A stretch of 64,000 nt of DNA, taken from Paraspadella gotoi (taxonomy: Eukaryota; Animalia; Chaetognatha). Where the stretch lies: contig CM119267.1 of NCBI GenBank assembly GCA_051294375.1, positions 2,635,230 through 2,699,229 on the forward strand. Reading direction: 5' to 3'. The notes below the pieces were generated by a model that saw only the letters and a program-made list of their open reading frames with translations, was not told the origin of the DNA and did not search any database. Shown in pieces: positions 1 through 51,900 of the stretch. Position 1 is the first letter of the stretch, and each line of letters begins with the position of its first letter. The position numbers were made by a program, and so were the translations under genes.

Positions 1-38
1 AAAAGCCAGTAGTATCATTTCAAACTTGGAACTCAAAC

Positions 39-581
39 CTGTAACACTCCTCGATCGGATAAACGGTTAAGTCCAGCCTGGTGAAGTTATCCTTGATCGT
101 ATCGAGAGCCGCCATCGCCGCCCTCACGTCGTCCAGGTTGTCGATGGGATTGCTGAGTTTGGCCACGTATTCTTCGCTGAAATCTATGATCTCCTTCAGC
201 TTCTTGAAGTATATGTCGTGGATGTGGGAGCAGTAGACGTGCTTCCACTGCTTCAACTCCACCTCGACGGCCTCGACGAATCTCTCCGTGGAGAGGAGAA
301 GGGGTCCGAAGGGAATCCCCTTGGGCAACTTCTGCACCTCGTTCAGTGTCGTGTCGAACTTGTGAATGTGGTTCTGCCATTCGGACAAGGAGGGATTCTT
401 GGCGGCCAAGTCGTTGAGTTCCTTGTTCTTGTCCAGATCCCAGACGAAGCGATATCGGTAGAACTGATCCAAGACGAACTCTAATTTCGGTTTGAGATTG
501 AGAATGGCACCGTGGAGATAAGCGCTAGACTTGGTCACGTCCTTGTGGTTGGAAATGTACTTCTTCAAGTTGTTGATAGTT
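39..581 (-). CDS. Dynein heavy chain exon
   Basis: Polypyrimidine-CAG acceptor ending at 582 and GT donor at 38; encodes ...LSTERFVEAVEVELKQWK...LSNPIDNLDDVRAAMAALDTIK...PIEECY. Confidence 0.9.
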
Positions 582-6234: not shown

Positions 6235-6266
<32 letters not shown>

Positions 6267-8282: not shown

Positions 8283-8313
<31 letters not shown>

Positions 8314-11300: not shown

Positions 11301-12596
11301 AGGATTTTTTGATGGCGGCGCTAGCAGTCCTTTAGATTTGAGGTTTTTTCCTGTCTTAAAAAATGGGCAACCAACTATATGCAAGTTATGAGCATTTTTA
11401 ACATAGTGTTGGACGAACCGACAGACCGACCGAAAAGTGACACATTGAGTTTCTTCACAAGTATTTTCCGGCGCAACTAAAAAACGTAATAAAACCCCAA
11501 AAAACAGAAAGCACGAATCTTTAAATTGCCTCGTGTTGTCTTTCGATTCGTTGACAGAATCCGTGATGCGTCGATCGATTTCCTTCCAACTAATAATAAA
11601 AATCGGGGAAGGAAGTAAGAAATTATTTTTTAAGCATTGGAATCTGTTTTGACATGAGTTAAAGACGTTAGTGAGGAGCTTTTATTAAAAAAAAAGAAAC
11701 AATGGGATAATGGGATCTGTTTTACACGAAGTAGGATTCTAATTTTAGTTAATATTACCAAATAACCCAAATAATAATTAAATGATAGAATAATTTATCG
11801 TAATATGGAAAAAAAAAACAATCTTGAAACGTCACATAAATTTCATAACCACTACGTCTCATGGTTTTCTTCATAGAAATTTCACGTTGTTTTTTGTTGT
11901 TGTTTTTTGTTGTTGTTTTTTTTTTTGGCCATAATTATGATCGGTTAAACCTCGCCATCTCGTCAATCACCGGTCGAGGATGATTTTCGACTTGGCGCAT
12001 TGCAGAATGACGATCGACACTCGACAAATGTGGGTCTTCGTGAAATCGATGATGCTGCTGAACTTGATGGAGGCGACCCTCCAGTACTCCAGCTCCGTCA
12101 AGGGTCCCGAGTCGCCCTTCTCCCGACGAATCATGTTGAAGTCGTTGATGATGGAATCGAGACGATTGACCCAATGCATGACCGTCTTCTCCACTGATGG
12201 AAGGATGTCAGGATTGCGGGCCGCAATCTGATTGGAAAACCAAACGAGAGAGAATGACTCGAGATTTTTAAATTACTTATTCTTTTCTCTCTTATTTTCC
12301 CCCTTTTTTTCTTCTTTTATTTCCCGCCATTTTTCCCTTTCTTGCTTTCCTTCCTTCCTTTCCTTCCTTTCTTTCGTTCCTTTACTTCCTTCTCTTCCTT
12401 TTCTTTCTTCCCTTCCTTCCTTCCTTCCCTTCCTTCCTTTCCTTCCTTCTTTTTCTTCCTTTTCTTCCTTTCTTCCTTCCTTTCCTTCCTTTCCTTCCTT
12501 TCCTTCCTTTCTTCCTTTCCTTCCCTTCCTTCCTTCCCTTCCTTCCCTACCTTTTTCTTCCTTCTTCCTTCCTTTCCTTCCCTCTTTCCTTCCTTC

Positions 12597-12657
<61 letters not shown>

Positions 12658-14427
12658 TTCCCTTCCTTCCTTCCTTCCTTCCTTCCTTTCCTTCCTTCCT
12701 TCTTTTTCTTCCTTTCTTCCTTCCTTTCCTTCCTTTCCTTCCTTCCTAACCTTCCTTCCCTTCCTTTTCTTCCTTCCTTCCTTCCTTTCCTTCCTTCCTT
12801 CCTTCCTTCCTTCCTTCCTTCCTTCCTTCCTTCCTTCCTTCCTTCCTTCCTTTTCCTTCCTTCATTCCCTTCCTTCCTTCTTTCCTTTCCTTCCTTTCTT
12901 CCTTCCTTCCTTTCTTCCTTCCTACTCCTTCCCTTCCTTCCCTTCCTTCCCTTCCTTCCCTTCCTTCCTTCATTCCCTTCGTTCCTTTATTCCCTTCCTT
13001 CCTTCCTTTCCTACCCTTTCTTCCTTCCTTCCCTTCCTTCCTTCCTTTCTTCCTTCCTACCCTTCCCTTCCTTCCCTTCCTTCCTTCCATTTATTCTTTA
13101 ATTCTTTTTTCCCTTCCCTTCCTTCCCTTCCTTCCTTCCATTTATTCTTTAATTCTTTTTTTTTTTTTTCGTCCTTCCTTTCATTTTCCCCAGAGACCAA
13201 GTCATGTACTTTTCACGCACCTGATACTCGGCCATGGTGCTGCAATTCATGAGATATTCCCCAACGTTGTCGACGGGTTCGCTCATGATTACGACGTTGT
13301 CCAAGGCACCGTGCATCGCCGTCAAATAATCGGCGAATCCAGAAAATTCGATCGAGTAATTGTCCCACTCCTCGACGCCACCTTCGAAAAAAAAAGGTGA
13401 AATTATGGTGGTATATTCACATCGCCTCACGTCCACCATCCTTCAGCCAAATCCAGTGGCTCAGAGGGGGAAACACACAATCCACAGTCCTAACGACTTC
13501 CCTCTGCGTTGGCAAAGCGAGACCGCCCTAGGGTAACCGCGCCAGTGACTGGAGGCGTCACTGAGGGTCGGAAGCCCCCAAAGCCAACAGTGAGATGCCC
13601 CATTCCAGTGGGCTTCACAGGCAATCCGGCTGTTGCCATAAAATAAAATTTATGAAATAATCGTGCGGATTCTTTCAAAAGCGCTTTGTTTGAGATTAAA
13701 TTCATAATAATAAGCAAACCAAAAAAAAAAAGAAATAATAATAAAAGCGAAACATTAAGCGGACCCGGTTTGTCCTTAAGGGCGCCCATGCAGGAATCCT
13801 TGGACGTTTTGATGTTTGCGATGACCCTCGTCTTGAGGTGATCGGCCACGGCGGGCAACATTCCTTCATAGACGGTCACGTCGAGAGAGTTGAAGACGAT
13901 CTCTCCGATGTTGTTCATGATGACGTTGTCCTTGTGGGTGCGTGTGAAGTAATACAACACTCCGGTGAGAGGCTCTTTGGTTCCGTCAGTAACGAAGAGG
14001 TATTTCTTGGCCGGAGCTGTCGTCTCCGCTTCAGCGACTTGAAAAGTGGATAAAAAAAAAAACTGAGTTGGATGAAGTCAAATGATTTCATTGCTCGAGA
14101 AGGCATTGAAATCTTGGCCACTGAGTCATCAGTTCGAATCGTTTAAACGTAATGGAAATTGCAAAGAAGTGAAACGAAAAACTTCGGTTTTTATACATGC
14201 CAATGTGAGAAGTGAAATGTGAGAAGTAAGACGTGAGAAGCCGATATTTCTACATTTTGTTTTTCATCAGGTTCAAAGGGCAAAAACGAAACGAGGGACG
14301 GACTGACTGACCCTGTTTTCGAGGTCCTTTTTGAATCGGAAGTCCTTGATTCGCATAAGACGTTCGACGATCGTCCATCTGTAACGGGATCAAAATAATC
14401 TCTCTCTCTCTCTCCTCTCTCCTCTCT

Positions 14428-14485
<58 letters not shown>

Positions 14486-14956
14486 ATCAACCTGGTAATA
14501 AAAGGCGAGTCCCATTCTCCCTTGGCATAAGAAAACTCTCAATCAGTTCAATCTGCGCGTCGCCATCTTGATCTGAAGCGATGAGATCAGTGATGGCGCC
14601 GACCGTGAGGCCCGTCGCCTGTGTGGGATACGTTTGTGTGTGTGTGTGGGTCAGGGGGGGGTTTTCGTAAGCGATGGGGTTGTATTCGAAGAGGCTGAGA
14701 TTTGACGTCTTAAAAATCACAATCTCACAATCACAATCTCACATCTCACAATCTACGTAATCTCCAAAGTTACCATTAATAATAATAATAAATAATAATA
14801 ATTAAAAAAAATAAATATGTCTTCGCATTCACTTGTGAAAGATAGAAGAAAAGATGTTGAATCTCCTGCTTCGCCATTTGCAATTTGCGTTCGTCTTTTT
14901 TTTCTTTGGCCGCTTGTTGCATCGCTTTCATCGCTTCCTTGTCCAACACTCCTAAG

Positions 14957-15015
<59 letters not shown>

Positions 15016-15673
15016 TTGTTAAAAGACGAATAAAGGCATTATCTCACTCTCCCGTAGAACACGCATAGAAAGGATTACGGATCCTTATTTCCAGAAAGCA
15101 AAGACAACTTCCACGCCCACTGTGATCCTTGCCAATTTCTATGAGTGTTCAACGGGAGAGCGAGTTCACGCCTTTATTCATTCAGAACGGATTATGAACA
15201 GCGTGAAGAGAAAGAATTCTTGAGACTTACCTTTAGACTTAACTTTCTCGGCGTTGATGTTTAATGTGAAGGGTGAGTCCGCTCTGTTCAAGTTGTGACC
15301 CAAAAAATGATGGTCGCTTCTTTCTCTTCTTTCCCTCCGATTGAGTGAATTTTGAGGGAAATTCTGAAATATATATATAATATATATATAGTATATTATA
15401 ATAAGATATTAAGTCTCTTATGAAATTATCGTTACTTCCATTCTCGGGGAGCGGCTAATCTATGGTCTGAATAATATGAAAACTTAAATGTGATCTTCTC
15501 AAATCACTTAGCAACTTTCTAACCGATAACCTAAAATCTAAAAACTCACCTAATTTTGAATTTACACACAAATGCTGAGGGGTGGCTTCATCAATTTTAA
15601 ATCATTGGTCACTGAGGTCCTGACTAATAAGCGCTTTTACCTGGTTAACCTGCGACTTGTCCTGGCGATCCAT
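39..15673 (-). CDS. Axonemal outer-arm dynein heavy chain, DNAH5/DNAH8-like, 5' portion (N-terminal tail); continues beyond position 1
   Basis: Exons with splice phases checked by hand: 15641-15673 and 15231-15363 (putative first exons), 14833-14951, 14492-14618 (1-nt frameshift), 14312-14378, 13765-14037, 13221-13381, 11971-12227, 11530-11589, 11014-11077, 10765-10944, 8734-10044, ~8023-8250, 7397-7614, degraded exons ~6785-7040, ~6400-6730 and ~2095-2510, and 39-581. Peptides GPLTELEYW, NESKDN.RFLYSLE, TSERMTSLFIKVTNQ, FSEMYIFGKF and NLDDVRAAMAAL match my recollection of DNAH5/8 tail motifs. Confidence 0.9.
595..962. repeat. Purine-rich minisatellite (~117-bp units) in a dynein intron
   Basis: Repeated GAAAGACAAAGAGAAAGGGG...GGGGAAATACAAAAAGAAGAG blocks. 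Confidence 0.8.
965..1930. repeat. AATTGTC-based satellite whose orientation flips across the 25-N gap
   Basis: AATTGTCGTTTTCT units at 965-1155 and noisy AGAAAACGACAATT units at 1260-1930. Confidence 0.75.
8734..10044 (-). CDS. Largest dynein heavy chain exon (437 codons), with a low-complexity insertion
   Basis: CAG acceptor, GTGAG donor, phase 0/0; encodes EFSEMYIFGKFRAFCERL...PPIARTQLPFSGTVSWARSL...APLLVRDPDTNEALINFD. Confidence 0.92.
11151..11484 (-). mobile_element. HINE/DINE-like element (related pieces at ~2600-2835, ~30945-31010, ~34210-34260)
   Basis: AACAAGAAC end, inverted TGCGCCG/CGGCGCA subterminal motif, (GACC/GACA)n tract and A-run flanks. Confidence 0.45.
12340..13140. repeat. 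(CCTT)n/(CTTT)n polypyrimidine tract
   Basis: About 800 bp of almost pure C/T. Confidence 0.95.
13406..13640 (+). mobile_element. Family A ~240-nt structured, twister-bearing interspersed repeat (in a dynein intron, antisense to the gene)
   Basis: Close reverse-complement copy at 24809-25062 with the same ends; an A-rich tail follows 13640. Confidence 0.75.
13508..13588 (+). ncRNA. Twister ribozyme, type P5 (repeat family A, copy 1)
   Basis: P5 GTTGGC/GCCAAC; P2 (C)CGC/GCG(A); GA; T1 CCG/CGG; palindromic P1 CCCTAGGG; U^AA at 13534-13536; T2 GC/GC; P3 CAGTGAC/GTCACTG; P4 GGG/CCC around loop TCGGAAGC. Confidence 0.8.
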
Positions 15674-16159
15674 TTCGTCAGTTAAAAGTTACACCAAAGT
15701 ATTATTACTACTAAATTGAATGCAATATTCAGCTAAATTAATGTATTACTCTACGGAATTATACTGCTAGAAAAACTATCGACGTAAAACAAAGATTTTT
15801 TAACTTTTTTTCGTTTCGTTACGATTAAAAAAATTTGTTGGGAATTTTTTTTTAATTTCTTGGGTTTGATGTCGAAGTAAAGTGGGATTCTATTCGTTCG
15901 TTTACGCTTTTGTTTCGCTAAATTCTGCGTTGGTCCGGTCGCACTCGTTCGGGCATTTGTCGTGGATGGCGTAAGATTCGATGCTTAATACGTTTAAACT
16001 GGTAATTTAGCTACTATGTATAATTGAATTGACTACCTCTTTTGAAACCAAAAAAAAAAATTCAATTAAAACTAAGTAATAGGTGGTACAATATATTTTT
16101 TTTTTAATTATATGACGGCGACGAAAGAAAAAGTGACGTCTACGTCATCATCATCATCA

Positions 16160-18101
16160 TCAACAACACTTTTTTCGCCTCGATCTGGACAACTCCATCA
16201 ACGGGTCCTCGAGACTGATTCGCCGAAGATCTGCCTCCATCCGCGACTCCACTCGCTCCAGCCTCTCCATCACTTTATCCAGAAGGAACTGCATTGGGGT
16301 TTTAATTGAATTGAATTAATTAATTTTAAATTAAATTTAATTAATTAATTACGTTAGTAGTTATTCAATTGTCTACGCAAAGTACTCAACTTGTTCTTTT
16401 ACACAAAAAGCCTTTACGAAATTGATACAACCAATATAAAAAAATATCCATTCATTTAATATATAATCTATCTTGCCCCTTATGTTAGTGCTCATGATAA
16501 AAATCTGACTATTTTTTTAATTTATCATATTTTTTTTTATATTAAAGAACTGTTAGTTTAGTTTAAACTGTCCAAAGTCAAAAGCATTTATTGAATGATA
16601 GATGATTCAATTCAATTCATATTTCATAAATAGGCGAGAGAAACAACCATCTCGATAAAACCTGAATGGAATCGTCGACCATGAGACCAAATTTCGCCGA
16701 GGTTTCTATCCATCCATCGAATCCCGCGCTGCTCACTAAGTCTTCGATGCTGTTCAGGTCGATAGACCTTAATAGGGGGAAAAATGATTATCATTTTTTA
16801 TGAACAATATTACGTAAGAAGCTTATTAGCTTAATGAAATACATTCGTAAAATCCGTCTCGATTAATCTAGGGGTGTGGCGAATCTTAAATTAGGCTCTC
16901 GTATAACGAGGACAACTAATTTACTCGCTAACCCATCATGAATTCCGGGTTCAATCCCTTCAAGGTCACTGTTAGTCAAAAGTGACGGTTCTAAGATTAA
17001 AATACCCCTGAAATGCGCCGTCTCTACTGGTTTCAAAGCCATGGGGCCCCTGGGCGTCAGCTGTCGCCCATTCTTCACACCCCGGGCATCAACTCCCCCC
17101 GTTCTCGTAGGTGTACAACCAAAGAGAAATATTTCAATTTGTCATTTGCCTTTTTTCGGAATCGAGATCACATTTGTTCGCCAGAAGTAAGACAGGAATT
17201 GGATCACCGTTTCCAAGAGCACATTTTGTGTCTACGTCTCTCTTCCACTTCAACTGAGAAAAAAAAAACCAAAACAAATTATATAGAGTCACCAAAAAAA
17301 GCTAAAAAAATTTAAATTTGAAAAAAAAGAAGCAAAAACCAACGGAATTTTGGAATGAAGTTTTGTTGCTGAGATCGAAAAGAATCAAACAACCAACGGC
17401 GTCCTGAAGAAAAAAAAACAAATCAGAATCAATGCAACGCAATGCAATGCAACGCGACGCGGTGATGAGCGGCTGCCCCGTCGACTATACCTCACCTTGA
17501 AATAAACCCTCGTCATCGAGGTGAACCTTTCCTGACCGGAAATGTCCCAAAGCTGAACCTTTAAAGTCAGATCTTCAGAGTATTTGATGACCTTCAGACC
17601 GAAGTCAACTCCCATCGTGGGTTTGTAGCTTTGGAAATCTCCGTGAATATAGCTGTCAGGTTATAGGAGAGAGTATTTCTTATGAAATTGATACAACCAA
17701 TAAAGAAATTATCTATCTTGTCCCTGACTTTGGACAGTCAATGGTATGTTTAGGCCTTCATCATTTTGATAAGATAATGACATAGCAGGAAATCAAAACT
17801 CTCTTAAAGTCTACTTTATTCGTTCCCAAAGTACCTGGCTTCCCTATCAATCAAAAAGTATTTCAATTGTAAATAAATAAATATGTATTCAAATATAAAA
17901 GGACCACTCCCTTAAGTATTCGATCGGGGAATAGTATAACGTATTCCGCACTAGCATCAAATAGAAAAAAAGAGAATAAAATAGTAATCTTAATAAAGCC
18001 CCTCCTCCCCTTAAAACAAACGCCGACCGTTGAACGAAAGAGGTCTTTCCCGTCATGATGTCGCCGATGACGATGATTTTGATAATTTGTTCCGACGGCA
18101 T
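16160..18101 (-). CDS. Rab GTPase of the Rab32/38/29 group, most like Rab29 (Rab7L1); 209 aa
   Basis: Exons 18028-18101, 17496-17652, 17344-17403, 17150-17253, 16662-16767 and 16160-16288 splice in frame. Motifs GDIMTGKTS, GVDF, WDISGQERFTSMTR, LLANKCD, ETSAK and a C-terminal KKCC prenylation signal. FTSMTR rather than FGNMTR points to Rab29. Confidence 0.88.
17681..17965 (-). mobile_element. Family B repeat copy in Rab intron 1
   Basis: Colinear with 25074-25385 (tatgaaattgatacaaccaat ... gaccactcccttaagtatt ... agcatcaaa). Confidence 0.7.
17713..17777 (-). ncRNA. Degenerate type-P5 twister (family B) in Rab intron 1
   Basis: Keeps loop TCCAAAGT, TAA, AC, GA and most of P5; T1 (TGA) and P4 carry mismatches. 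Confidence 0.5.
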
Positions 18102-19178
18102 AATAACAAAAAGACGAGTACAGTCTGCACAGAAATAACGAATTGATTTTCGCCGAATTAGTTTACAAACATCCCGTTCAGAATACAGTTCGAAGTTCAT
18201 TTCTTAATCTTTTTATCTATTTAATCGGGTTTTTTTTTTTTTTTTTTTTTTGTTGTCCTTCTATTTTCCGATTAGCTGTTTTTAAATTTTATATTATATT
18301 CCTTCACAAGATAATATCATTAAAATATTGACGTAAACTATGACTGGAAATCTATAAAAATAAAACTCGGCTATACCGGCGTTCTGTCAGACATAATAAA
18401 TATGTCGGGGATAATTCAGATCTTTCGTGGAAGTTGTCACTAAGTAGAGAAGCCGACTCCGACCTTTAATCGTAATTATTGTTTGTCTTTTGTCATTATA
18501 TTTTAGTTTTCAGTTTCTCCGCCTTCACTTTTCAACTTGACTTTCTCTTTCTCTTTCTGATGTGAACTCATCGTAATAAAAGGTAGGGAATCGTTTAGAG
18601 ATCCGCAGCGGCAGGAGGACGACGTCAGCCAATCAGAAGGCTTCGATCGATGACGTGATGACGATTCGAGAGTCTGATTGGCCGAGCACCGCTCCGCCGC
18701 TGCCGAGAAGGTGTGCATCATCATCTGTTGCGCAGGATGCTGCGGCTGCTGGATGAAAACAGGAAATGTCTCTTCGAGTTCGACTTGGTTGGCGTTGTCG
18801 CTCGCTCGACTTACCTTGCACCCCGTCGAATGCGAAGCGGGTGTGTCCAACTAGGTTTCGCTCTCTCTCGCGAGAGCGACGAAATACTTGAGACTAACTA
18901 CCAAATCTTTTCGTCCAAAAAATATGAATGCGGGAGTGAAGGTCTTGAACTTTGACCTCTTTTGGGTCAAGAGATGGGGTCGCATGATTTTGTGATCAAA
19001 GGATTTTTGACTGAATTTCTCAGGTGAGATTTTTGTCGTTTATAATTCTCACCTTGACCTTTCTTATCCCGGATCGACAACACCTTCAACATTCTTACCT
19101 ACCTCCGATCAACAGCCCTGACTTTTTATCTTTCCGACCCCCTATTTTCAATCCTTAGTTCCCGAAACGCAACCTACC

Positions 19179-21753
19179 ATGACTCTGACTGTGCCCGTCA
19201 CTCACTGGACGGACGTCTTCGCCTATCACCGATTCTGGTCCATCTTCCTCGGAATGTTAAACGTCCTTTGTTGGTCTTACTACAACGTCCTCGTCGACCT
19301 CACCAAGGTAACGCAGTTAACTAGTAATGCTACTTATTACTTATCACATAATGTGTGCTATTAATCAACGAAGATATTAAAAAATAAAAAATAAATAAAA
19401 AATATTAAAAAATATTAAAAAATTGAAAGGCTTGTACTAAAGCCGAACAATGCCCGTTTTTGAAAAATAAAAATTCGTTGTTTGTAAACATTAAAAAAAG
19501 CCTCTGCCTCTTAAGTTGTAGCCCGTAATACAATTTACAAGAGCTATCTACAAAGGGACAAAGGCAAATTACCAATTCGGAAATCAGATTCTTACTTTAG
19601 ATTCCCTTGCACTGCGTAGCACTAAACTTTTAATCCCTTTTTAAACCGTGAGGTCTTCAACAACGGCGTGATCCTTCTCTCTTGCGTTTGCCTCAATCTG
19701 GTGGGAGTCACTCCTCTGCTCTACTTCACTCGGGATAATCTCAACTTGCGCGGAAAGCTGCAGTATTTATGGTGCAGCTGCTTCGGTCTTTTCGACGTTT
19801 TTCTCATTCTTCTTATGTCCTACGCTTTTCAGCATGCGCCCATTGGAGACGCCGCCTGCCTCTTTGCACTGAGGGTCGTGTGGACTCCGGCCGTCGAGGT
19901 TCGTCAAAAAGTTTCCTCCTTTTTATATAGTGATATTTGGTGCCTAATAATTTATATCTAAATATATGTATATAATACGTACATAGTATATATTTGTAGT
20001 TTGAACATCCTATATATATATAAAACGCACCAAAATATTTTATAGTTTTTATTTTTAAGTTCTATAAGCAAAATTTCATTTTTATTTAAACTTTAGCATT
20101 GTCAGCTAATTCCAGGCTTCTCGATTTCCAGGCTGTCTTAAAGCGACGCTGCATTCCAGTCTCACAAGCTTTGACGATCCTCTTCAGCCTCGTCGGCGCA
20201 GTCCTCATAACCCAACCAAATTTTTTGTTCCACCGTTCCGACCACGATCCAACTCAATACCCACTGCTTTATCGAGCCTACGGGTTCGCCTTTGTCGCCG
20301 GTGTCCTCGCCGGCTTGCAGTACATCTTTCTGGGGTTTTGTCCCAACGTTCACTGGTCCGTTTGGCAGGTAAGGAGGAAGAGAAAAGCATGGGGGGGAAT
20401 GATTTAGAGAGAGAGAAAGAGAGAAGCAAAAAGACTTAAGATATACTACATAGAGAGAAAGGTGCTCAAGAATTTGTGTTCGGAGGAAAGGAGATTGAAT
20501 ATCACTTTTCACCCTGACTTTTCTCTCTACCCTGCGATGTATCTATTTTGATTTTTTTGATAATTTCAAAATGTGTAAAGAATTAGAGAGAGTGAGACCA
20601 CTTTACCACAAAAGGTCCCTTGTTTGTCCACCTAAGCTCTTTTAGGGTTAGAAAATGATTTTGTATGGGGAGACGTGTGTGATCCCTTGGTTGTGAAGTA
20701 CGGGAGGCGAATTTAGGATTCGCCACTCCTTCATGAAAGATTAAAATGTATGGTGTGGACGAACAATTACAACACGCAACCTCGGTCAAAACCGAACTTA
20801 CCAACCTTACCCTCAAACGTTTTCCCTTATTCTTTTTGTGGTCAAACTTTGACCTTGTAAATACCCATTGTTATAGACTTAGCATCTGAGCTTTTTGCCT
20901 GTTATTGTTATTAACCTTATTGAAGAATAAATTCATTCTTACTCTGAAACTTGTTGCGTCCACAATGGTTTGAATTAAACCGCGCTTAATCCGTAAAAAA
21001 AAACGGTACATATGTCTCTCCAACTTTTCATCGCATAACAGGTGGCCATCGTTCCCGTGGGCATCGTTGTGGCGCCGATCAACTACTTTGCCGAAAACGG
21101 ACTCGCTTACCCACGCGACTACACTGGACTCGAGGTATTTTCCGTTTTCCTCGTCGCCGTCATGGACATCCTCGGTCGGGCGTGTCGAACGTGCGCCGTG
21201 CAGGAGCACACGGCCTCGACGGTCGCGTTGGTGTCCACGCTGGAGATCCCCTTCTCTTACTTTTGGGGTTGGGTCTACGCCGGCGAGAGGCTGCACACTC
21301 TGCAGATGATCGGGGCCCTGCTCGTCATGGTGTCCATAGTCATTCTCTCGATTCCTTGGAAGAAGAAACCAACCGAAGAGAGACTAATAAGGTACGAATA
21401 TTTTTAAGCTAAAGGGTTTAACTATTCTCGTTGAGATCGTTATTTTTTTCGTTCGTTCCTTTCTCGAGGATAATCGAAATTTAGAATTAAAAAAAGAAAG
21501 CAGAAAAGCTGTAAAATTTTCATCAACTCTTCATCTTTCTCGATATTCCGAGTTTGACAATAAACTTCATACAGTGCATAGTGTATACTGTGTAATGTGC
21601 ATACGGTTTTACTAAATTAGAAATAAAAAATTCCGTTCATCTCCCCAACATTTTAGTTTTGAGGAAGAGCTGGAAAGACTTCACGACATAACTGAAGAAA
21701 CTGCAGAACTTTTGACGGCTTCCGATTCCGAAGAACAAAATCCTATCATTTAA
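19179..21753 (+). CDS. SLC35G-like EamA/DMT-family multi-pass membrane transporter (~352 aa)
   Basis: Exons 19179-19307, 19653-19898, 20132-20368, 21042-21391 and 21657-21753 splice in frame. Multiple hydrophobic helices; YAFQHAPIGDAA, SLVGAVLITQP and STLEIPFSYFW...GERL..LQMIGALLV are typical EamA repeat motifs. Confidence 0.82.
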
Positions 21754-22265
21754 CATAATTTTTAAAATCTTTTCATGGGTAAACCGTTTTATGCTTTCAG
21801 ATAAAATATTTATAATTGTGATGGATTTTAGATTATTAACTAATATACTGGTCAGTCCGACGAGGGAGTTTTGAGGTTATATATGTGATATTTTTTTTTA
21901 CAAAGATTTTTTCCCGTTTTAAGATAATTTTTTTGTAAAGAAAAAAACAAACAACGCAAATTCAATAAGTTGACAGTCTGGTTACAATCGGATTGGACTA
22001 GTATATATAAATTGAATTATTAGGATAAATGTAATTTTGTGGTTCGCTGGGTAAAATTCTGGAATTCTTTTGTCAGCTTTACCATTGATTGTCATTGCAG
22101 TCTCTTTTGCACTTAGTATTGTGGTATGTTTATTTTGATAATATTCACCCCCATGCATGCCAGATTCCTTTTCTTTAATCGGATACGGATAATATGACTA
22201 ACCAAGATGGCAATTTAGTAAACAAAAGTTTTATCTTATCATCTTATCTTTTTTTCCTCATTCAG

Positions 22266-22491
22266 CACCATGTCGGCGGCGGAAGCCTCCTTCAGTTCTA
22301 CCCAAGAATCGGTCCGGACGTTTCCCCAAGCGGCTCAATCGATGCCCCGGATGGCGCTGCCCCTGCCCCCGGCAGCCATCGCGCGTCTGAGCGTCGATGA
22401 GGCCGACGATGACCTCCAGGGGATCGTCGAGGCTGACGAGTTGCAGCAAAGTGTCGTCGGTGCGGCGGACATTACGGATCAGCATCTCTGA
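22266..22491 (+). CDS. Probable alternative terminal exon of the SLC35G-like gene, or an independent 73-aa ORF
   Basis: Strong acceptor ttttttcctcattcag at 22265 and a GC-rich ORF; phase-2 compatible with the donor at 21391 (AG|C ACC ATG). Confidence 0.55.
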
Positions 22492-24103
22492 CCGAAATTG
22501 TTCGACTGATTTTCCGTCCTTTGCCGGATTAATTCTTGGCGATTAATGAAATTAGTTGCAACCAATTGTTTTAGCACAATAAATCCACGTCGATCGAAGA
22601 CCCACCGAAATTTATACGCTAATTGTAATACCTTATTTAATATTTTTTTTTGAGTCATTTATCTCAATTTTCATACATTTTCAAACGTTTTCGCACACAT
22701 CGTTTTGAAATTTTGTCTCACGCTGTTTGTTTATTACAAGTATATTTTCATGTTGCTTTTAGTAATCGCTAAAACAATAATGAAACGAACCTTCTTTGTT
22801 AATAAATCATTGTAAAATTCGAGAAAAAAAAACGGGATAGACACTTCTAACCTATTTTTCAGCAAGTTTTGGATATCTTTTGGCATCATCATAGCAATGA
22901 CCAGAGTCTAGTAGATCCATATAATAGCGAGCAATGAATATCAGTGAGCTTTTGGTAACCCTCGTCACAAAGATTTAAGTCCTTGGTTTCATTTTAATTT
23001 AAATTACTTAAAAAGCAATAACAAAGACAAACAAAATGATATTACGTTAAAACAAACGTATTACATATAACAATATATACAACGATAATAAAACGACGAT
23101 AGACTTAAAGCATAACAATGTTAAAACGTGATAATAATAATCGGTTTTGACGTCGGTGAAAGAGAAAGATAAAAACATAATTTTCGGTTATGGCTGGAAA
23201 TTCGAGTGAGTAAATTTTCACAATATAAGGAGAAGTCAGACGACGACGACTGAGGCTTCACAGTAGTTCGGTGAACGGTATCTTATATAAGGGTTATCCA
23301 ACATCCAAATGAATGTCGATTCGAGTCGCCAAAAGCTTTCACTTTGATTATAAAAGGCAAGTTTTTTAGAACCATTTGAGTTTGATCAAGGGTTTAATCA
23401 AGCATACCAGGATCGTTATTATTAGTCAACTGCTAATTTATTATTTCTATATATACATATACTTATATATATACTTATTATTATATTTTATTTTTATACC
23501 ATAAATGTTACAGAAATGGTTATGGACCACTTGTGTATTCGCTCTCATGTTTCGGGTCTCGACTCGAATGCCACGTTTCCATGACAACCTGGACGCTTTC
23601 GTATGCAACTTTGGTTTGAAGAATGCTTTTTTTTATTAGTGAAATTGGAGAAAAAAAAACAACAGACTTGTGTCTTTATTAAATTAATCACATAATTTGC
23701 TCCCTTTTTCTCTCAATTCTAATGACTGACCGACCCATTTTTTCAATCTTTCCAGCTAATCCTCATCTGACTGTTTCATAACAAATGCGTTTGTTCTTAG
23801 TTCTTAGCTTAACAAGTACTTTTTTAGCTTGCCGGTTTGAAAAACTGAAAATCATCTCTAGTGATTGGCTCATATTTTCTCTTTATAAAATAAATTTGTG
23901 TTAAGCCTATAAATAGTATAAATACGTAAATACCTACTACAAATAAAAAAAACCTAATATTGACTCAATATTATTGAGCGAAATTTGGTTATCGGCGATT
24001 TCGTCCTAACAACCCTGGGACAATTCTAAATTAAAAAATACATTTCGTGCTTCTTAGTATGGACTCTCTCTCCTCTCTCTCTCTCTCTCTCCTCTCTCTC
24101 TTC

Positions 24104-24142
<39 letters not shown>

Positions 24143-24808
24143 CACGCGATGTTTGACTGTATGTATGATGTTGTCAAGGCTGTAGTCAAGGTACAGGTAC
24201 AACTGGATGTTTTACATTTTTTATTAAAATTTTTTCGCGTTATGGTGATATAGTAAAAATTTTACTACTGTTGCGGGTTGCGGTCTCGGACGTAATATGA
24301 TCTACAAAAAAATATGGTTTGCATTTTTATGACTATACAATTGTTACCACCCCCCCTCTACTCTCTGAAATAAACAAACAATTACAACTTCGTTTGCGCT
24401 CAATTTTTATGAATTCCATTTTTTACTGTTAATTTCAATTTAATTTATGTTTTACTTTTAGCTGTTTTAATGTTTATATTGCAAAATATACAGGTTAATT
24501 TTTTTATCGCTACCTTACTTTATTCTCCTAACTTCATTATATCGCCACATCTTTGTCAGCTCAACGGTCACTGACCTGAAAGACACAAAAAAACAGGAAA
24601 TTAGTTTTTTTTTATTGTTTCGATGAAATTGGTGAGCTTAAAACCGCCACGTATCCAAGATAAGACTCGAAACCGAAGCTTTTGACGGGAAAAAAAAGGA
24701 AAATTGTAAAACTTTTAAAAAATCCGGGGAAAAAGGAACGAAGGAATATGGAATCGGAGCTTAAACCGAGTGAATAAGGTGGGTATTTGTCTTTAGATAA
24801 ACATTAGG

Positions 24809-25062
24809 TTATGGCAACAGCCGGGATGCCTGTGATGCCCATTGGGATGGGGGATCTCACTCATGGCTTTGGCGGCTTCCGACCCTCAGTGATGCCTCCA
24901 ATCACTGGCGCGGTTACCCTAGGACGGTCTCGCTTTGCCAACGCAGAGGGAAGTCGTTAGGACTGTGGATGGAACATTACGCCTGTGATGGTGTGTTCCC
25001 CTCTGAGCCAATGGATTTGGCTCTAGTATGGTAGACGTGAGGCGGTGTGAATATACCGCCAC
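24809..25062 (-). mobile_element. Family A repeat, copy 2
   Basis: Reverse complement of 13406-13640 with a ~20-nt internal insertion. Confidence 0.75.
24862..24942 (-). ncRNA. Twister ribozyme, type P5 (family A, copy 2)
   Basis: Same core as 13508-13588, with a compensatory P3 change (C-G to U-A), P1 TCCTAGGG, one P4 mismatch and a shortened P5. Confidence 0.7.
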
Positions 25063-25073
25063 AAGGTAGAATA

Positions 25074-25422
25074 TATGAAATTTGTTCAACCAATATAAAT
25101 TATCCATTCATTTAATAAATAAGCTATCTTGCCCCTGACTTTGGACAGGCTTTGGTGGTTTAAGGCCTCCATCACTCTTACAAGATAATGACATAGCAGA
25201 TCCCTGCAAGCTTTCAATCAAGACTCTCTCACAGTCTCGTTTATTCACTCCCAGAGTACCTGGCTTCCCTATCAATGAAGTGGTATAATGTTTCAAAGAA
25301 AGTTTAAATTGTATGAAAAGACCACTCCCTTAAGTATTAAATCGGGGAATACTATATTGTACTCCGCCCAGCATCAAAATAGAAGGAGCTGACTTTTATG
25401 AAATTGGTACAACCAATATAAA
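25074..25422 (-). mobile_element. Family B retrozyme-like repeat: full 323-nt unit plus ~25-nt terminal redundancy
   Basis: TATGAAATTtGTtCAACCAATATAAA at 25074 recurs at 25397. Other copies at ~16415-16480, ~17681-17965, ~28515-28562, ~32681-32760 and ~51735-51900. Confidence 0.7.
25124..25188 (-). ncRNA. Twister ribozyme, type P5 (repeat family B)
   Basis: Minus strand reads TTATCTTG TAAGAGT GA TGG AGGCCT TAA ACC AC CAAAG CCTG TCCA AA GT CAGG GG CAAGATAG. P5, T1 (CCA/TGG), T2 (AC/GT) and P4 all pair; P2 pairing is weak. Confidence 0.68.
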
Positions 25423-25572
25423 AATAGAAAATAGAATATAGAAATACAATAGATATAAGAGTATAAGAGTATAAGAGTATTATTTTTTTTTGCTATGGAC
25501 GTATCTCGACCGTCAATTAAACGATGGATATTTCTTGCATTAACAGATTTGAGTATTCGGGCTGTTTAAAGC

Positions 25573-27382
25573 ATGGCTTCGGACTTACAAGCCAGGCTCC
25601 GCAACAGCGAGACCAGCTTGCTGTTCATGCAACAGGAACACGCCAAGACGCTGGAAGGCCTGCACAACGAGATTCAGAAGCTTCAAGAAAAATGCGCAGG
25701 TAGCTCGTTATTTTTTTTAAATAGTCAAATAAATTTCAAATTTTAATATTTAATAATTTATTACAAATTATAATATTGAATAAGTTTTTCTTACGTAATA
25801 ATAAATAGGTTTATTTATTTAATCAATAGTTTATCTCCCTCGATTATTTAGACTTGACTTTTCGTCTGGCGATGGAGGAGACGTCTCGCTCGTCTTCCGA
25901 TGCAGACGTCCAGCGACACAACGACGAGTTGCAGTCTCTTCTGCGGCAAAGGGATGATCGATTGCTGCAACTCGAAGACGCGTTGCGAGAGCGTGACGGT
26001 CGACTGCAGGCGGTCGTGCGGCATCTGGAACGAGAGAGGGAGACGCGGGCTCGCGAGTCAGCCTCCTTCTTGGAGCGGGAGCGCACACTGAAGGCAGAGT
26101 TGGAAGCGCGCGCCGGGAGAGTCGCTTTTCTCACCGCTGAGATGCACAAGTTTAAGGTGAGGTCGTCATTTGCGCAACTTGAATTCATGTCATTTAGAAA
26201 GTTTTGAAAATCAATATGCAACTTTATATGCTATTATTGTAAAAAGTTACTCAAACTAAAGGCGTCTTATTTTATTTCAAGTATGGTACAAATTGTACTA
26301 CAATATCGATAAAAATGATATTACCTCAATTATCAACTTCCTCTCCGTGGAATTCTTAGGTCAACAGAGGCAGCAGCGGCAGCGGAGGGAGCGGCGGCGC
26401 TGATGCCGCTTTAATCACCGTCCAGCCGGACGGCGCCGTTGAAACGAAATTCAAGAGAGCGCCGCCAGTTAGAGCGTCGACGAGGGATTCGGCGCGCGTC
26501 AACAATGACGCCCCAAGGTCAATGCGCCATCTACGTCCGCTCTCCTCGTCATCCCCGGCACCGAGAACGCCACGACGACAGGTGGCGCCTTTTTCAAGCG
26601 AATCGAGCTTCCAGCATCCGAGCGGCGTCGATGAGACATCGAGCAAACGCGTCGTCGCTGCAGGAGGGCGCCGTTTTCGTCAAATAGCGCCGGACGAGGC
26701 GTCGCGATGCGCCGAGGAAGGCGACGATGCTGGCGGCGTCGGTGGGCGCGGCGCCATGAGTCTTCGTCCGACGCCTCCAGTGTTGCCTCCCATATTTGGA
26801 CCTACTGGTCGACAAGGGGGTGGAAGCGGCGGCGGGTGCGGCGGCGGGGGCAGCGGCGGCGGCAATAGGCTTAACACTAACAACAACAACAACAACGTAT
26901 TGCTGGGCGCCGAGGAGGAAAATTCTCGTAAAAGCGGCGTCATTTACGAAGACGTTAGCATCATCGATCTCGGCGGCGTCTCTGGCGGCGCCTTTGGCGG
27001 CGTCAAATCGAGCGATTCCGACGCCGTCTCGATCGGAGCCGAGGACGACTCCAACGACGCCGACGCAGAGACGACGCCGGGTGAGAGTTCCACGGGAATG
27101 GCGTTGGCGAGCTCTCATCTCGGCGGGCTCTTGGGTGGGCTCGGTGACGCCGGAGCGAATCTCGAAGGTCCCGTCCTCGTGAGAAAGGCGAGAGTGAGAA
27201 CCGTGAATAGAAAGGATCTGGCGCGACATCACCAAGCGGCCGCGGCGTCGTCACAGGGCGGGGCGCGGTCCAACGACGCCGGCGACCTCACGCTGGACGT
27301 CCTCGCAATCGACGCCGCCGATCGTGGCATCGCCAAGTGGTCGAGAAGAGAGAACGTGCCCAACAATCCCACGACGCCGTGA
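25573..27382 (+). CDS. CCDC92: Coiled-coil domain-containing protein 92-like
   Basis: Exons 25573-25699, 25852-26156 and 26360-27382 splice in frame. The N-terminus LLFMQQEHAKTLEGLHNEIQKLQEKCADLTFRL matches the CCDC92 N-terminal coiled coil; VLPPI and LAID motifs follow later. Confidence 0.85.
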
Positions 27383-27654: not shown

Positions 27655-29127
27655 CTCTCCCTCTCTCGCAATTTCTTCTAGTAGTCAAATTTATTTAATT
27701 TTTATTTTCTCGCATAATATTTTTTTTTAAATCTGCCAACGTCCATTAACTACTCTTTTTTATGCTTGGTGTCCGCGTCATCGATATGTTTAACCTCTCA
27801 AGCTCTGTTCGCTTCTTTTAAAGCTTGGTGTGCGACAAGCGATGTCAGCGAGTGGTCCGCTGGTCACTCAGAAAGGTGATCGATTAAATCTTTTAAAAAA
27901 TGAAAGTAGTAATGGATTTTTCACGCGAATGACCTCAACTGAGAAAAGTAACGAAGGCTTTTTTTTTCTATTATTAATCATATAATTCTTTTTTTTATAT
28001 TAATCTTCTTTTTTTTTATTCGTCGGATTGTTGTACCTCACAATTATAGAACCCACGACGCATCTCTTTTAGGCATTTTAAATTATTTAAACGAGGAAGA
28101 AGAAAAAATCTCCTTAAATTTCATTGTTTTTTTTTTATTATTTTGATAAAATTAATTATTGGCGGTAATACTAACCAAGAGATTGTTAAAGCTCATAACT
28201 ATTTCTTTAAAAAAAATCCAATGTCGTGCTGTAAGGTTTTATGCTTTAGACAATGCCAAATTTGTTATTTCATTAACTCGTTTCCAATCAATAAAAGCAA
28301 ATGGCTAATTACGTTCTTTTTTTTTTTACTTTAAAAAACCTGTGTTAGACTACATTTCTTTCAACATTTATATTTTTAAACATATTTAAACAGATCCAGA
28401 GGCACTTGGTCAATCTTTATTTGCTTTAAGTTTAAGATAGTTAGGCATGTTAAATTAATTTTAAAACAAGAACCGCCAAGCTCAAGAGTGTTGCGTGGCA
28501 GTGACTTTTTTGTACCTCTTGTAAGAGGGATAGAGGCCTTAATCAACCACAGCCAGTCCAATCGCTTTCTCGAAACAAGCGAAAGAGGGCAGCACAAATT
28601 GTTGAACATCTTACGATATTAATTTTTCAGACAAAAGGCAACGGGATATGCCTTGATGTGATTATTTGTAATGACTTATGAGGAACATGGTCCTCGGACT
28701 CGTCCTTACAAAATATTATAATACCCTTCAGAAAAAATAGCCTCTAAAATAATGCCCCTAATAGGTGTTTTTAAATATATTTCACTAAAACGTCAAAAAA
28801 CGGATCAGGAGCAACATTAAAAATGTTGTTCTCTAACTTGATTGCTAATTGGTTGAGGCGATTCCATCAGCGACGAATCATCATCATCGAAGCTCGCCAA
28901 TTTCATTCCTTCGGAAATTCCTCGATCCATTTATCCGGTTTGGTTCCATGCGAATATCCCAGTTGTAGAGGGCTTAAAATGATAAAGAAAAAAAAATTAA
29001 AGTAAACATATGCACCTATTCATGTCAATTAAAATCCTTAAAATCAAGATCACCAACTTTTAACTAATTTTTATTTCTTCAGTGTCGCTGTGACTCCGTG
29101 ACTCCGACTTTCAGGATATCATTGCCG

Positions 29128-32546: not shown

Positions 32547-32998
32547 CTCATTTGGCGGTGAAAGCCGTAAACAGTTTTATCCTTCAGATGAACGTGAATG
32601 AGAATGATTTTCAGTTGCTTGACAGACAATGGAACCTCATGAGTTGGTTTGCTTGGTACTTGATTTTAAAAATTAAATAGCTTGTCCAAAGTCAGGGGCT
32701 AGATGGCTGATATAATGATTATTGAATGAAAGGAAAATTTTTATATTGGCTGTGCAATGTACCAAGACCCACTTCTGAAACGTATATATTGAACTTTAAA
32801 CAAACTAATGCGTACAACTTTCGTATTTCGCCTTTTCTTTTACTCAATTCCATTTTAAATTCGCTCCTTCCGTTTTTTTCTCTCTTTTTTTTTTTCTCCT
32901 CAATTTTTCTTTGCGTGTGGCACCCCTGTGGATCGAGGAAAGAAAGTTAACAAGAGAGAGAGAGAGAGAGAGAGAGACGAGAAGAGAGAGAGAGAAAG

Positions 32999-37578: not shown

Positions 37579-37663
37579 AAGCCCCTCTAACAGCCAAGGA
37601 AAGGGTCCTGGGCTTGGAACCAGGCTTGAGGGTTTTCCAAAGTTGATGGCCGTTTTTACGCTT
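37579..37663 (-). ncRNA. Twister ribozyme, type P1 (family C)
   Basis: Minus strand reads AAGC G TAA A AACG GC ... CCTGG TTCC AA GC CCAGG ... TGTT A GA GGG GCTT, giving P1 AAGC/GCTT, P2 AACG/TGTT, T2 GC/GC, P4 CCTGG/CCAGG and T1 TCC/GGG. Confidence 0.68.
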
Positions 37664-37794
37664 CCTGAAGGGTAAGTACCATTGAGAATCAATTACGGTA
37701 CCTAATTGCCAAGAGCTTATATTATTACCGGGTCATAACTAAAGAGTATATGCTTATAGCTGGGGGTGAACATATTGCAGTGCCTGACTACACT

Positions 37795-37983
37795 ATATCC
37801 AAACTCCTAACCATAATCCCTAACTCTAACCAAACCCTAAACCAATATTCATAATTTCTGACCCACGTCTTTAATCTTTAACTCAAAACCCAAACCTTAA
37901 TCACTAACCAAATCCCTAACTTTAATCGCTAACCTAATTCCGAATTTTAGATAAAATGGGTCGTTCTGGGAAAATAAGGCCGA
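37795..37983 (+). repeat. Dispersed repeat with degenerate TAACCC-like arrays and a conserved GATAAAATGGGTCGTTCTGGGAAAATAAGGCC end
   Basis: Related copies at ~10133-10390 (-), ~34270-34428, ~44695-44858, ~53943-54120 (-) and 58877-58929/62598-62750 (-). Confidence 0.65.
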
Positions 37984-38715: not shown

Positions 38716-38770
<55 letters not shown>

Positions 38771-38877
38771 GCCTTACCTTCGAATTAACTTGCTCTACTC
38801 GTGCTCTTCTTCCAATTTCTTAGACGCATTTGCTTCAAATTAACTTACCTCTTCAATGTCTGTTGAGATCAAAAGAT

Positions 38878-38958
<81 letters not shown>

Positions 38959-39164: not shown

Positions 39165-39195
<31 letters not shown>

Positions 39196-51163: not shown

Positions 51164-51734
51164 TGAAAAAGAACTAAAAAATAAAAGATCGAATTAGGAT
51201 GCAGTGCCAAGGTTGTCACGTAATTACCCAAAAATACAGATGAAAAACAATCACGACGGCGCAACACATTGGATTAACCGTTCTCGTCTTTTCATTTTTC
51301 TTTTCTTGTCGCTTTTCTCTTTTTCTCTTTTGTTGTTCTTTTGTCGCGAATTCTTCACTTGCTTCGGGACGAATCACGCCATCGCGTGAGGAAAAAGAGA
51401 GAGAGNNNNNNNNNNNNNNNNNNNNNNNNNNNNNNCTCACTTACCCACCACTACCCAGAATCGCGACACGACATGTCCGACGCTCTTTTTCTCTCGATCC
51501 AATCGTCGGTCAAGTTAGCCGTCTCTCTCTCCTCTTCTCTCTCTCTCTCTCTTCTCTCTCTCTCCTCTCTCTCTTCTCTCTCTCTCTCGTCTCTCTCTCT
51601 CTGGGTAAGTTAGTGGGTGATGAGTTTTTAAGGAAAGGGGGGCGGGGCGAGAATGAGGATGAAAAATTTAAGAATTCGTTAATTTTTATCACATTTATCT
51701 TTTCTGCAATTGTAACAGTTTATAAAAACATTTA

Positions 51735-51900
51735 ATTGATAGGAAAGTCAGGTGGGCTGGGAGTGAATAAAATCGATTGTCATTATCTTGTGAGAGTGAT
51801 GGAAACCTTAAAACCACCAAAGCCTGTCCAAAGTCAGAGGCAAGATAGCTTGTTTATTAAATGAAGAGATAATTTTTATATGGTTTATACTAATTTCACG
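51735..51900 (+). mobile_element. Family B repeat copy, 5'-truncated
   Basis: Reverse complement of ~25075-25275 with an internal deletion. Confidence 0.65.
51783..51848 (+). ncRNA. Type-P5 twister (family B), partly degenerate
   Basis: TTATCTTG TGAGAGT GA TGG AAACCT TAA AACC AC CAAAG CCTG TCCAAAGT CAGA GG CAAGATAG; the P1 palindrome is lost and P4 has one mismatch. Confidence 0.55.

What the first reader, a model, noticed from the sequence alone, without database searches (positions are those of the whole stretch)
13508..25188. Two unrelated P5 twisters both replace P1 with a self-complementary palindrome, suggesting dimer-dependent cleavage
Seen: between T1' and U^AA, family A has CCCTAGGG and family B has AGGCCT (also kept in the decayed copy near 28534). 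As hairpins these close only 2-nt loops, but two copies could pair into 8- or 6-bp helices. All helices differ in sequence between A and B yet still pair (T1 CGG/CCG vs CCA/TGG, T2 GC/GC vs AC/GT, P4, P5), which amounts to cross-family covariation. Known: minimal type-I hammerheads of animal retrozymes use a palindromic stem III and cleave as dimers; P1 is partly dispensable in twister. Inference: this may be a convergent, possibly undescribed minimal dimeric twister that cuts only multimeric transcripts and so spares host mRNAs carrying single copies.
Basis: inference. Interest (0 to 1): 0.85.

Follow-up and report, generated by a model that had tools for sequence, protein, structure and literature searches.

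The report
Palindrome-armed twisters in two jumping elements
Two short, high-copy repeat families in this genome each carry a twister-type self-cutting RNA fold whose first helix is shrunk to a 6-8-base palindrome, so two copies likely pair up to cut efficiently, as hammerhead ribozymes of related jumping elements do, but cutting is untested and single copies may cut too.

Summary
Families A (13403-13641; 24809-25064) and B (25074-25425, plus five decayed copies) each carry a full type-P5 twister fold. P1 is only CCCTAGGG/TCCTAGGG (A) or AGGCCT (B). A descriptor finds these 2 folds against 0.27 per shuffled window. In 42 of 42 well-formed phage/prokaryote P5 twisters, P1 is a 15-26-nt hairpin.

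Both families are high-copy, non-coding repeats. B has Penelope-like architecture: shared 3' end, variable 5' truncation, partial tandem.

The strict claim "cuts only multimers" is not supported:
- P1-less twisters cleave at almost wild-type rate (PMC5408937).
- Palindrome G/C sites vary across copies like other G/C sites (1.97% vs 2.00%), with no compensatory variant.
- One copy has a broken palindrome.
- No array with two whole ribozymes was shown.

Best reading: twister-bearing, retrozyme-like elements in which half-swapped dimers likely rebuild P1 and favour cleavage in paired RNA, sparing the monomeric template rather than host mRNA. I found no such report in nine literature searches. Unchecked AI notes describe similar twisters in Naiad retroelements, which would favour shared ancestry over convergence.

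The parts
13403..13641 (+). Family A element, copy A1 (239 nt; lacks a 17-nt stretch present in A2); antisense in an intron of a minus-strand dynein heavy-chain gene
   Evidence: 84% identical to A2; ends by alignment to the sharp ends seen in contigs; host exons
13508..13588 (+). Type-P5 twister fold A1, intact; predicted cut between 13534 and 13535
   Evidence: descriptor hit; partial Rfam twister-P1 match, 15.2 bits
13526..13533 (+). Palindromic P1 linker CCCTAGGG
   Evidence: sequence; self-duplex -14.6 kcal/mol, best hairpin +0.4
24809..25064 (-). Family A element, copy A2 (256 nt); its 5' end lies 9 nt behind the 3' end of B1
   Evidence: loose ends of contigs pile at 24809/24810 and 25063/25064 with unrelated flanks; spacer
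24862..24942 (-). Twister fold A2; private changes break one P4 pair and two P5 pairs; linker TCCTAGGG at 24924-24917
   Evidence: most laid contig depth differs from this copy at 24862, 24863 and 24873
25074..25425 (-). Family B element, copy B1: one full unit of about 323-325 nt (25396-25074) preceded by the last 29 nt of an upstream unit (25425-25397), a partial tandem
   Evidence: direct repeat 25074-25099 / 25397-25422; go-back-325 joint
25125..25187 (-). Type-P5 twister fold B1, intact; predicted cut between 25162 and 25161
   Evidence: descriptor hit; Rfam Twister-P5 25.8 bits, below gathering 37.6
25163..25168 (-). Palindromic P1 linker AGGCCT
   Evidence: sequence; self-duplex -9.1 kcal/mol, best hairpin +5.6
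17680..17966 (-). Decayed B copy (73%): palindrome kept (17757-17752), U at the cut site and one T1 pair lost; sense orientation in an intron of a Rab-like gene
51729..51898 (+). 5'-truncated B copy (89% over the ribozyme part) with a broken palindrome, AAACCT at 51803-51808
16413..16480 (-). 3'-end fragment of B without the catalytic core
32679..32752 (+). 3' fragment of B starting inside the ribozyme
28517..28561 (+). Decayed 45-nt B fragment (87%) that keeps AGGCCT at 28534-28539; T1 and T2 broken

Best explanation
Families A and B are short, high-copy, non-coding repeats, likely non-autonomous Penelope-type (retrozyme-like) elements, each carrying a type-P5 twister fold whose P1 helix is reduced to a palindrome that would likely be completed by a second copy. 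In the predicted dimer the 5' half of one copy (P5, P2', catalytic G, T1') joins the 3' half of the other (U^AA, P2, T2, P4, L4), and the palindromes form a shared 8-bp (A) or 6-bp (B) P1, as in the double hammerhead. Cleavage would then be favoured in multimeric or paired RNA and be slower, not necessarily absent, in a single copy. That would release unit-length RNA, possibly circularised, and let the monomeric template survive until it is reverse-transcribed by the enzyme of an autonomous element, probably a Penelope-like element such as a Naiad. Shown: fold, palindromes, high copy number, element boundaries. Inferred: transcription, cleavage, dimer formation, circles and the partner element.
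For: Fold beyond chance, with different but pairing T1, T2, P4 and P5 in the two families. Both linkers are palindromic: chance is 1/16 each even if hairpin-closing pairs are granted (0.14 with G.U), and 1/64 (B) and 0.004-0.02 (A) if not (post hoc, n=2). 42 of 42 well-formed P5 twisters among 63 loci from phage and prokaryote scans that allowed short linkers have 15-26-nt P1 hairpins (26 distinct linkers). Swapped dimer vs two monomers: -63.2 vs -47.8 (A) and -24.1 vs -11.0 kcal/mol (B), pseudoknots not scored. B architecture (shared 3' end near 25074-76 in 4 of 6 window copies, 5' starts at 25425, 25384, 25282, 25151 and 25136, partial tandem) matches that described for Penelope-like and Naiad insertions (PMC8557442). 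Contig depth shows no step at the cut site (4.79M at 25160-62 vs 4.72M at 25163-65 in X1), so copied templates were uncut or re-joined there. Precedent: palindromic helix III and dimer cleavage in Penelope hammerheads (PMC4209133; PMC7229834).
Against: P1 is dispensable in twister: 'almost wild-type rate' without it (PMC5408937); no significant effect of P1 defects (PMC11662667; type-P1 only); PMC8501958 says cleavage without P1 is inefficient. No within-family selection signal: palindrome G/C sites vary 1.97% vs 2.00% (X1) and 1.86% vs 1.64% (X2) at 4 vs 9 sites, with no compensatory variant. One of 4 window B copies that cover the linker has lost the palindrome. A has sharp ends and no tandem joint among the 15 shown of 418; the B joint proves a head-to-tail junction (49 nt on the shorter side at best) but not two whole ribozymes. 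A can form a 2-bp tetraloop hairpin. A phage-like contig holds a single P5 twister with a 5-nt linker (L036, 37.0 bits). No reverse-transcriptase gene among 124 window ORFs scanned, so the Penelope/Naiad link is not shown here.
Confidence: 0.5

Rival explanations
1. The twisters work as monomers. P1 has shrunk to a tether or mini-hairpin because twister does not need it, and the palindromes are tiny hairpins with a paired 2-nt loop, or leftovers of a longer stem that lost its loop.
For: P1 dispensable. A closes 2 bp plus a tetraloop at +0.4 to +2.7 kcal/mol before stacking on T1; paired two-base loops of the CUUG type are recalled, not looked up. Single-copy 5-nt linker in L036 and a 12-nt linker in L104. 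A occurs as solitary copies. Both well-preserved loci are antisense to host genes and the one sense-intron copy with a core is decayed (very small n).
Against: B's hairpin is unfavourable (+5.6). Two independent palindromes are unlikely by chance. The duplex is strongly preferred wherever two copies meet. Genomic copies run across the cut site with no step, which fast monomer cleavage explains only through re-ligation.
Confidence: 0.3
2. The palindrome is an RNA-pairing signal (a kissing loop, like the retroviral dimer-initiation site) that brings two templates together for reverse transcription or packaging. Each twister cuts within its own strand whether paired or not.
For: Six-base palindromic kissing loops are known in retroviruses (recalled). 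Stable self-duplexes are predicted. A has no shown tandem form yet has the stronger palindrome.
Against: The palindrome fills exactly the place of P1, from T1' to the cut-site U, with no flanking unpaired bases. The hammerhead precedent at the equivalent place is catalytic.
Confidence: 0.1
3. The folds are inactive or nearly inactive relics carried along by a DNA- or RNA-based short repeat, and cleavage plays no part in its spread.
For: Rfam scores are below the gathering cut-off; P2 is imperfect in both; A has sharp, weakly complementary ends (UUGUGGC/GCCAUAA) as a small DNA element might; no copy boundary at the cut site.
Against: The common form of both high-copy families keeps every catalytic position and both pseudoknots (no >=5% variant row shown there), with different pairing sequences in A and B. 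P2 defects are tolerated in assayed twisters.
Confidence: 0.07

Closest known systems
Type-P5 twister ribozyme (Rfam RF02684; Roth et al. 2014, not read; described in PMC5408937, passages)
   Same: Strand order P5-P2'-GA-T1'-P1-UAA-P2-T2-(P3)-P4-L4-P4'-P5, both pseudoknots, conserved U^AA, GA, and L4 U and A.
   Different: P1 is a 6-8-nt palindrome instead of a 15-26-nt hairpin (42 of 42 controls); P2 imperfect; scores below Rfam's cut-off; eukaryotic repeat context.
Minimal type-I hammerheads of Penelope-like elements and amphibian retrozymes (PMC4209133, PMC7229834, passages; Lunse 2017 not held)
   Same: A helix next to the cut site is reduced to a short palindrome; dimer cleavage proposed; high-copy retroelement context.
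   Different: Different ribozyme class. Helix III is needed by the hammerhead core whereas twister P1 is dispensable, so the need for a dimer is weaker here.
Non-LTR retrozymes of animals (PMC7229834; bioRxiv 10.64898/2026.07.22.740005, first fifth and passages)
   Same: Non-coding units of 170-400 nt with one ribozyme each, found as monomers and head-to-tail forms; proposed non-autonomous derivatives of Penelope-like elements.
   Different: Defined by type-I hammerheads; here a twister. Whole dimers or arrays and circular RNA were not shown; A has sharp ends and no shown tandem.
Naiad/Chlamys Penelope-like elements (PMC8557442, passages)
   Same: 5' truncation, partial tandems, short tail, non-autonomous derivatives; they lack canonical hammerheads, which leaves room for another ribozyme.
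   Different: No ORF here and no link to one found; the paper reports no twister.
Twister variants of Schistosoma Perere-3 (PMC8501958, passages)
   Same: Twister with a weak or missing P1 in a retroelement.
   Different: Type-P1, at the element's 5' end with the cut site as boundary and P1 supplied by flanking DNA. Here the cut site is internal and is not a copy boundary.

Membership tests
Type-P5 twister | Conserved core nucleotides (U^AA, GA, L4 U and A) in the P5 strand order | tested here: met
   A1 and B1 by descriptor
Type-P5 twister | Pseudoknots T1 (3 bp) and T2 (2 bp), stems P4 and P5 | tested here: met
   all Watson-Crick in T1, T2 and P4 of A1 and B1; P5 6 and 8-9 bp
Type-P5 twister | 4-bp P2 | tested here: inconclusive
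   3 pairs in both (mismatch in A, bulge in B); P2 defects tolerated in PMC11662667
Type-P5 twister | P1 closed as a hairpin | tested here: not met
   6-8-nt palindrome; hairpin +0.4 to +5.6 kcal/mol; controls 15-26 nt
Type-P5 twister | Rfam RF02684 gathering score 37.6 | tested here: not met
   B1 25.8 bits; A1 no RF02684 match at E<=10
Type-P5 twister | Self-cleavage at U^A | not testable with these tools
   needs an assay; only assembled contigs were available
Non-LTR retrozyme | Non-coding 170-400-nt unit with one small ribozyme, many copies | tested here: met
   256 and about 325 nt; 29,072 contigs laid in run X1; no Pfam match in the element ORFs scanned
Non-LTR retrozyme | Type-I hammerhead ribozyme | tested here: not met
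   no hammerhead match in Rfam scans; twister fold instead
Non-LTR retrozyme | Tandem repeats with a whole ribozyme in consecutive units | tested here: inconclusive
   B: partial tandem and head-to-tail joint only; A: none among 15 of 418 joints shown
Non-LTR retrozyme | Abundant linear and circular unit-length RNA | not testable with these tools
   no run on record as RNA was listed
Naiad / Penelope-like element or derivative | 5' truncation, fixed 3' end, partial tandem | tested here: met
   met for B; A has two sharp ends, so not met for A
Naiad / Penelope-like element or derivative | GIY-YIG plus RT ORF, or 3'-end similarity to an autonomous element | tested here: inconclusive
   no RT or GIY-YIG among 124 of 138 window ORFs scanned; no genome held; flanks of laid contigs are heterogeneous

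The most novel reading that the evidence does not exclude
Penelope-type retroelements that lack hammerheads (Naiads and their non-autonomous offspring) use an obligate-dimer twister instead. Two RNAs swap halves through a palindromic P1 to build two active sites, so the ribozyme counts copies, cutting multimers and leaving monomeric circles intact. A and B would be the first twister retrozymes and the first natural dimeric twisters, with a family-specific palindrome that keeps A and B from activating each other.
Probability: 0.2. Interest if true: 0.8.

Novelty: new variant of a known kind. Interest (0 to 1): 0.6.

Why it matters
If the dimer model holds, a second ribozyme class has reached the same copy-sensing trick as the double hammerhead. 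It would give hammerhead-less Penelope-like elements the RNA-processing step they seemed to lack, and it would extend retrozymes beyond hammerheads. Standard Rfam thresholds miss these folds, so many more may sit unannotated in animal repeats. The claim can be tested in a few days of in vitro transcription, and a 63-81-nt concentration-gated ribozyme with swappable palindromes would be a useful RNA-engineering part. If monomers cut well, what remains is still an apparently unreported twister-bearing short repeat with a minimal P1.

Tried and rejected
Data that were missing or empty:
- No genome is held for the window, so copies could not be listed one by one, and palindromy per haplotype, orientation bias and partner elements were not tested genome-wide.
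- No RNA holder was listed among 17 runs. X9 and X10 are only guessed to be RNA. X9 shows a higher share of the go-back-325 joint than X1 or X5, but depth is not a valid measure here, so it was not used.
- X10 (organism B) gave 2 contigs nearly identical to the common forms, probably carry-over; no cross-species covariation was obtained.
- A family-B pattern found 0 matches in the metagenome collection.

Control scans:
- Short-linker scans gave 6 viral and 36 metagenome loci, mostly chance, type-P1 twisters, or long-P1 twisters misparsed. Only L036 is a well-formed short-linker P5.
- 0 of 17 loci from a search for L036 relatives had the twister core.
- These controls cover only the canonical sequence class (T1 CCC/GGG, T2 GC/GC), and many loci are relatives of each other.

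Readings considered and dropped:
- The 28534 copy as a third family: it is a B fragment.
- Palindrome conservation across copies as evidence of selection: rejected. The depth-weighted shares are not allele frequencies, only 25146-25170 could be read, and X6 and X8 showed no variant at 1%.
- My first reading of the go-back-325 joint as proof of full tandem arrays was withdrawn: many of its 24/21/14 contigs may be monomers whose last 25 nt map to the second copy in the reference.
- An A-B heterodimer at 24917-25168: by inspection the two palindromes can pair over only 3 bases.
- Whole-element folds are not unusually stable (z -1.6 and -1.5).

Other look-ups:
- A protein search with a host exon gave 3 unnamed relatives and no taxonomy.
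- Earlier-finding look-ups by place and by sequence gave nothing.
- Lunse 2017 was not held. The supplement of PMC11662667 could not be read; Roth 2014 and its supplement, which list natural P5 twisters, were not seen. These may bear on novelty.


Full report
1. Observation. The window is eukaryotic DNA with introns and many microsatellites; no genome is held for it. A1 reads P5, P2' GCGA, GA, T1' CCG, linker CCCTAGGG (13526-13533), U^AA, P2 CCGC, T2 GC, a 7-bp P3, P4 GGG, U, T1 CGG, AA, T2' GC, P4' CCC, P5. B1 (minus strand) reads P5, P2' GAGT, GA, T1' TGG, linker AGGCCT (25168-25163), U^AA, P2 ACC, T2 AC, P4 CTG, U, T1 CCA, AA, T2' GT, P4' CAG, P5. I assigned the catalytic G and the cut site from recalled twister structures and the Rfam alignment. 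A descriptor finds exactly these two folds in the window, against 0.27 per block-shuffled window; 60 shuffles gave 2 short-linker hits and none palindromic. Rfam support is below threshold: 25.8 bits for B1 (gathering score 37.6) and a partial 15.2 bits for A1. P2 is imperfect in both.

2. Copies in the window. A has two copies, 84% identical. A2 has TCCTAGGG and private defects in P4 and P5. B has six copies or fragments. Four cover the linker: three keep AGGCCT and one has AAACCT. The copy near 28534 is a 45-nt fragment of B, not independent evidence. B1, B2, B3 and B4 end at about the same 3' position (25074-76 in B1 numbering), B5 slightly earlier, and the 5' starts vary. B1 is a full unit preceded by the last 29 nt of another unit. 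A and B share no BLAST similarity.

3. Copies in the organism. Seventeen public runs hold the stretch, 9 of them from one organism; none is on record as RNA. I laid 7 of them. In X1, 29,072 contigs lie on 24780-25440, with summed depth in the millions against about 200 for single long contigs. The tool warns that this is no copy number; my rough inference is hundreds to low thousands of copies. A has sharp ends at 24809/10 and 25063/64 with unrelated flanks and no tandem joint among the 15 shown of 418. B depth falls several-fold towards its 5' start. A go-back-325 joint shows head-to-tail junctions, with at best 49 nt on the shorter side; this does not prove two whole ribozymes in a row. No variant at 5% or more was shown in either palindrome (40 of 49 rows shown).

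4. The proposed conservation test. At 1% sensitivity on B there are 17 variant rows, all at 25146-25169. The four G/C bases of the palindrome vary as much as nine other G/C bases of the core and loops: 1.97% vs 2.00% in X1 and 1.86% vs 1.64% in X2. There is no compensatory variant. B looks like one master sequence decaying neutrally, so conservation among copies neither supports nor refutes selection. Depth is flat across the predicted cut site, so genomic copies were made from RNA that was uncut or re-joined there, unlike Perere-3 twisters (PMC8501958, passages).

5. Is a short P1 unusual? Pattern scans of viral contigs (linker 3-32 nt) and prokaryotic genomes (3-24 nt) gave 63 loci. The 42 with perfect P2 and P4 all have 15-26-nt hairpins (26 distinct linkers). 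With one P2 mismatch allowed, one more has 12 nt and one 24 nt. A metagenome scan limited to 4-11 nt gave 36 loci, of which one, L036, is a well-formed P5 twister with a 5-nt linker. Short P1s are therefore rare but exist outside tandem elements. The control covers only the canonical sequence class.

6. Energetics. The self-duplexes are -14.6 (A1), -11.0 (A2) and -9.1 kcal/mol (B); the best hairpins are +0.4, +2.7 and +5.6. Half-swapped dimers beat two monomers by about 15 (A) and 13 (B) kcal/mol on nested helices, pseudoknots not scored. Granting hairpin-closing pairs, the inner four bases are palindromic by chance 1 time in 16 per family. Two of two is suggestive, though noticed after the fact.

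7. Mechanism. The most likely reading (0.5) is that the palindrome rebuilds P1 between two copies and favours cleavage in multimeric or paired RNA, so that the monomeric template lasts until it is copied. The same arrangement is described for hammerheads (PMC4209133, passages; PMC7229834, passages; PMC6765202 and PMC7761336, passages). The analogy has a limit: twister without P1 cleaves at almost wild-type rate (PMC5408937, passages), and P1 defects did not matter in a large assay of type-P1 twisters (PMC11662667, passages). A strict 'multimers only' switch gets 0.2 within that 0.5. Monomer function gets 0.3, a kissing signal 0.1 and an inactive relic 0.07. Sparing host mRNA is not needed for the two well-preserved loci: A1 is antisense in a dynein intron, and A2/B1 lie on the strand opposite a CCDC92-domain gene, ahead of its first coding exon (whether in an intron is inferred from one splice acceptor).

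8. Comparison. The folds work like type-P5 twisters but fail two membership features (hairpin P1, Rfam score). The elements resemble non-LTR retrozymes, which are defined by hammerheads and proposed to derive from Penelope-like elements (bioRxiv 10.64898/2026.07.22.740005, first fifth and passages; no mention of twister). B's architecture fits Penelope-like insertions, and Naiads lack canonical hammerheads (PMC8557442, passages). No reverse transcriptase was found in the window (124 of 138 ORFs scanned). Six unchecked AI notes from other genomes report twisters without a normal P1 in Naiad-type tails, two of them proposing dimers. They changed my view of the likely partner and argue for common descent rather than convergence, but I could not test them and they are not counted as evidence.

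9. Novelty. Nine literature searches listed no paper on a palindromic or dimeric natural twister or a twister retrozyme; twister with Naiad gave 0 papers. I read passages of 10 papers and saw only listings of the rest. Roth 2014, Kosutic 2015 and Lunse 2017 were not read, and supplements listing natural twisters were not seen. One review mentions unpublished truncated twisters in RTE elements. Verdict: a real, apparently undescribed variant of known kinds, already noted several times within this scan; dimer use is plausible, strict dependence is doubtful. Interest 0.6.

Noticed in passing
window 36425-45000 and 53801-63601: A large interrupted inverted duplication (blocks of 60-900 nt, about 79-95% identical) around a roughly 9-kb centre, with nested internal inversions; a foldback-like element, a segmental duplication or an assembly artefact.
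   Followed up: no
window 25064-25074: A2 starts 9 nt behind the 3' end of B1 on the same strand. Contigs show further A-B junctions (25063/64 to 25395/96 in 4 contigs of X1 and 3 of X5; 24929 to 25230 in 1), hinting at shared insertion machinery; the short sides are only 26-29 nt, so this is weak.
   Followed up: partly
L036:397-438: A phage-like metagenome contig has a single type-P5 twister (37.0 bits) with a 5-nt P1 linker, TTCGA, just behind a promoter-like repeat; a natural minimal P5 twister outside any tandem context.
   Followed up: partly
window 13403-13409 and 13635-13641; 25064-25058 and 24815-24809: The two ends of element A are complementary at RNA level (7 bp with G.U); joined in a circle they would form one hairpin. 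Both A and B end in a small 3' hairpin followed by CATA(A).
   Followed up: partly
window 13549/13557 vs 24901/24893: The P3 stem of A shows a C-G versus U-A pair between the two copies; both changes are private to A2, so probably two chance transitions.
   Followed up: yes
window 20-14077 (-), 16180-18090 (-), 19180-21750 (+), 25573-27382 (+): Host genes: dynein heavy chain (Pfam DHC_N1), a Rab-like GTPase, an EamA transporter and a CCDC92-domain gene; an intron-rich eukaryote, probably an animal.
   Followed up: partly
window 47019-47331: A 19-21-nt tandem repeat of about 15 copies, not examined.
   Followed up: no
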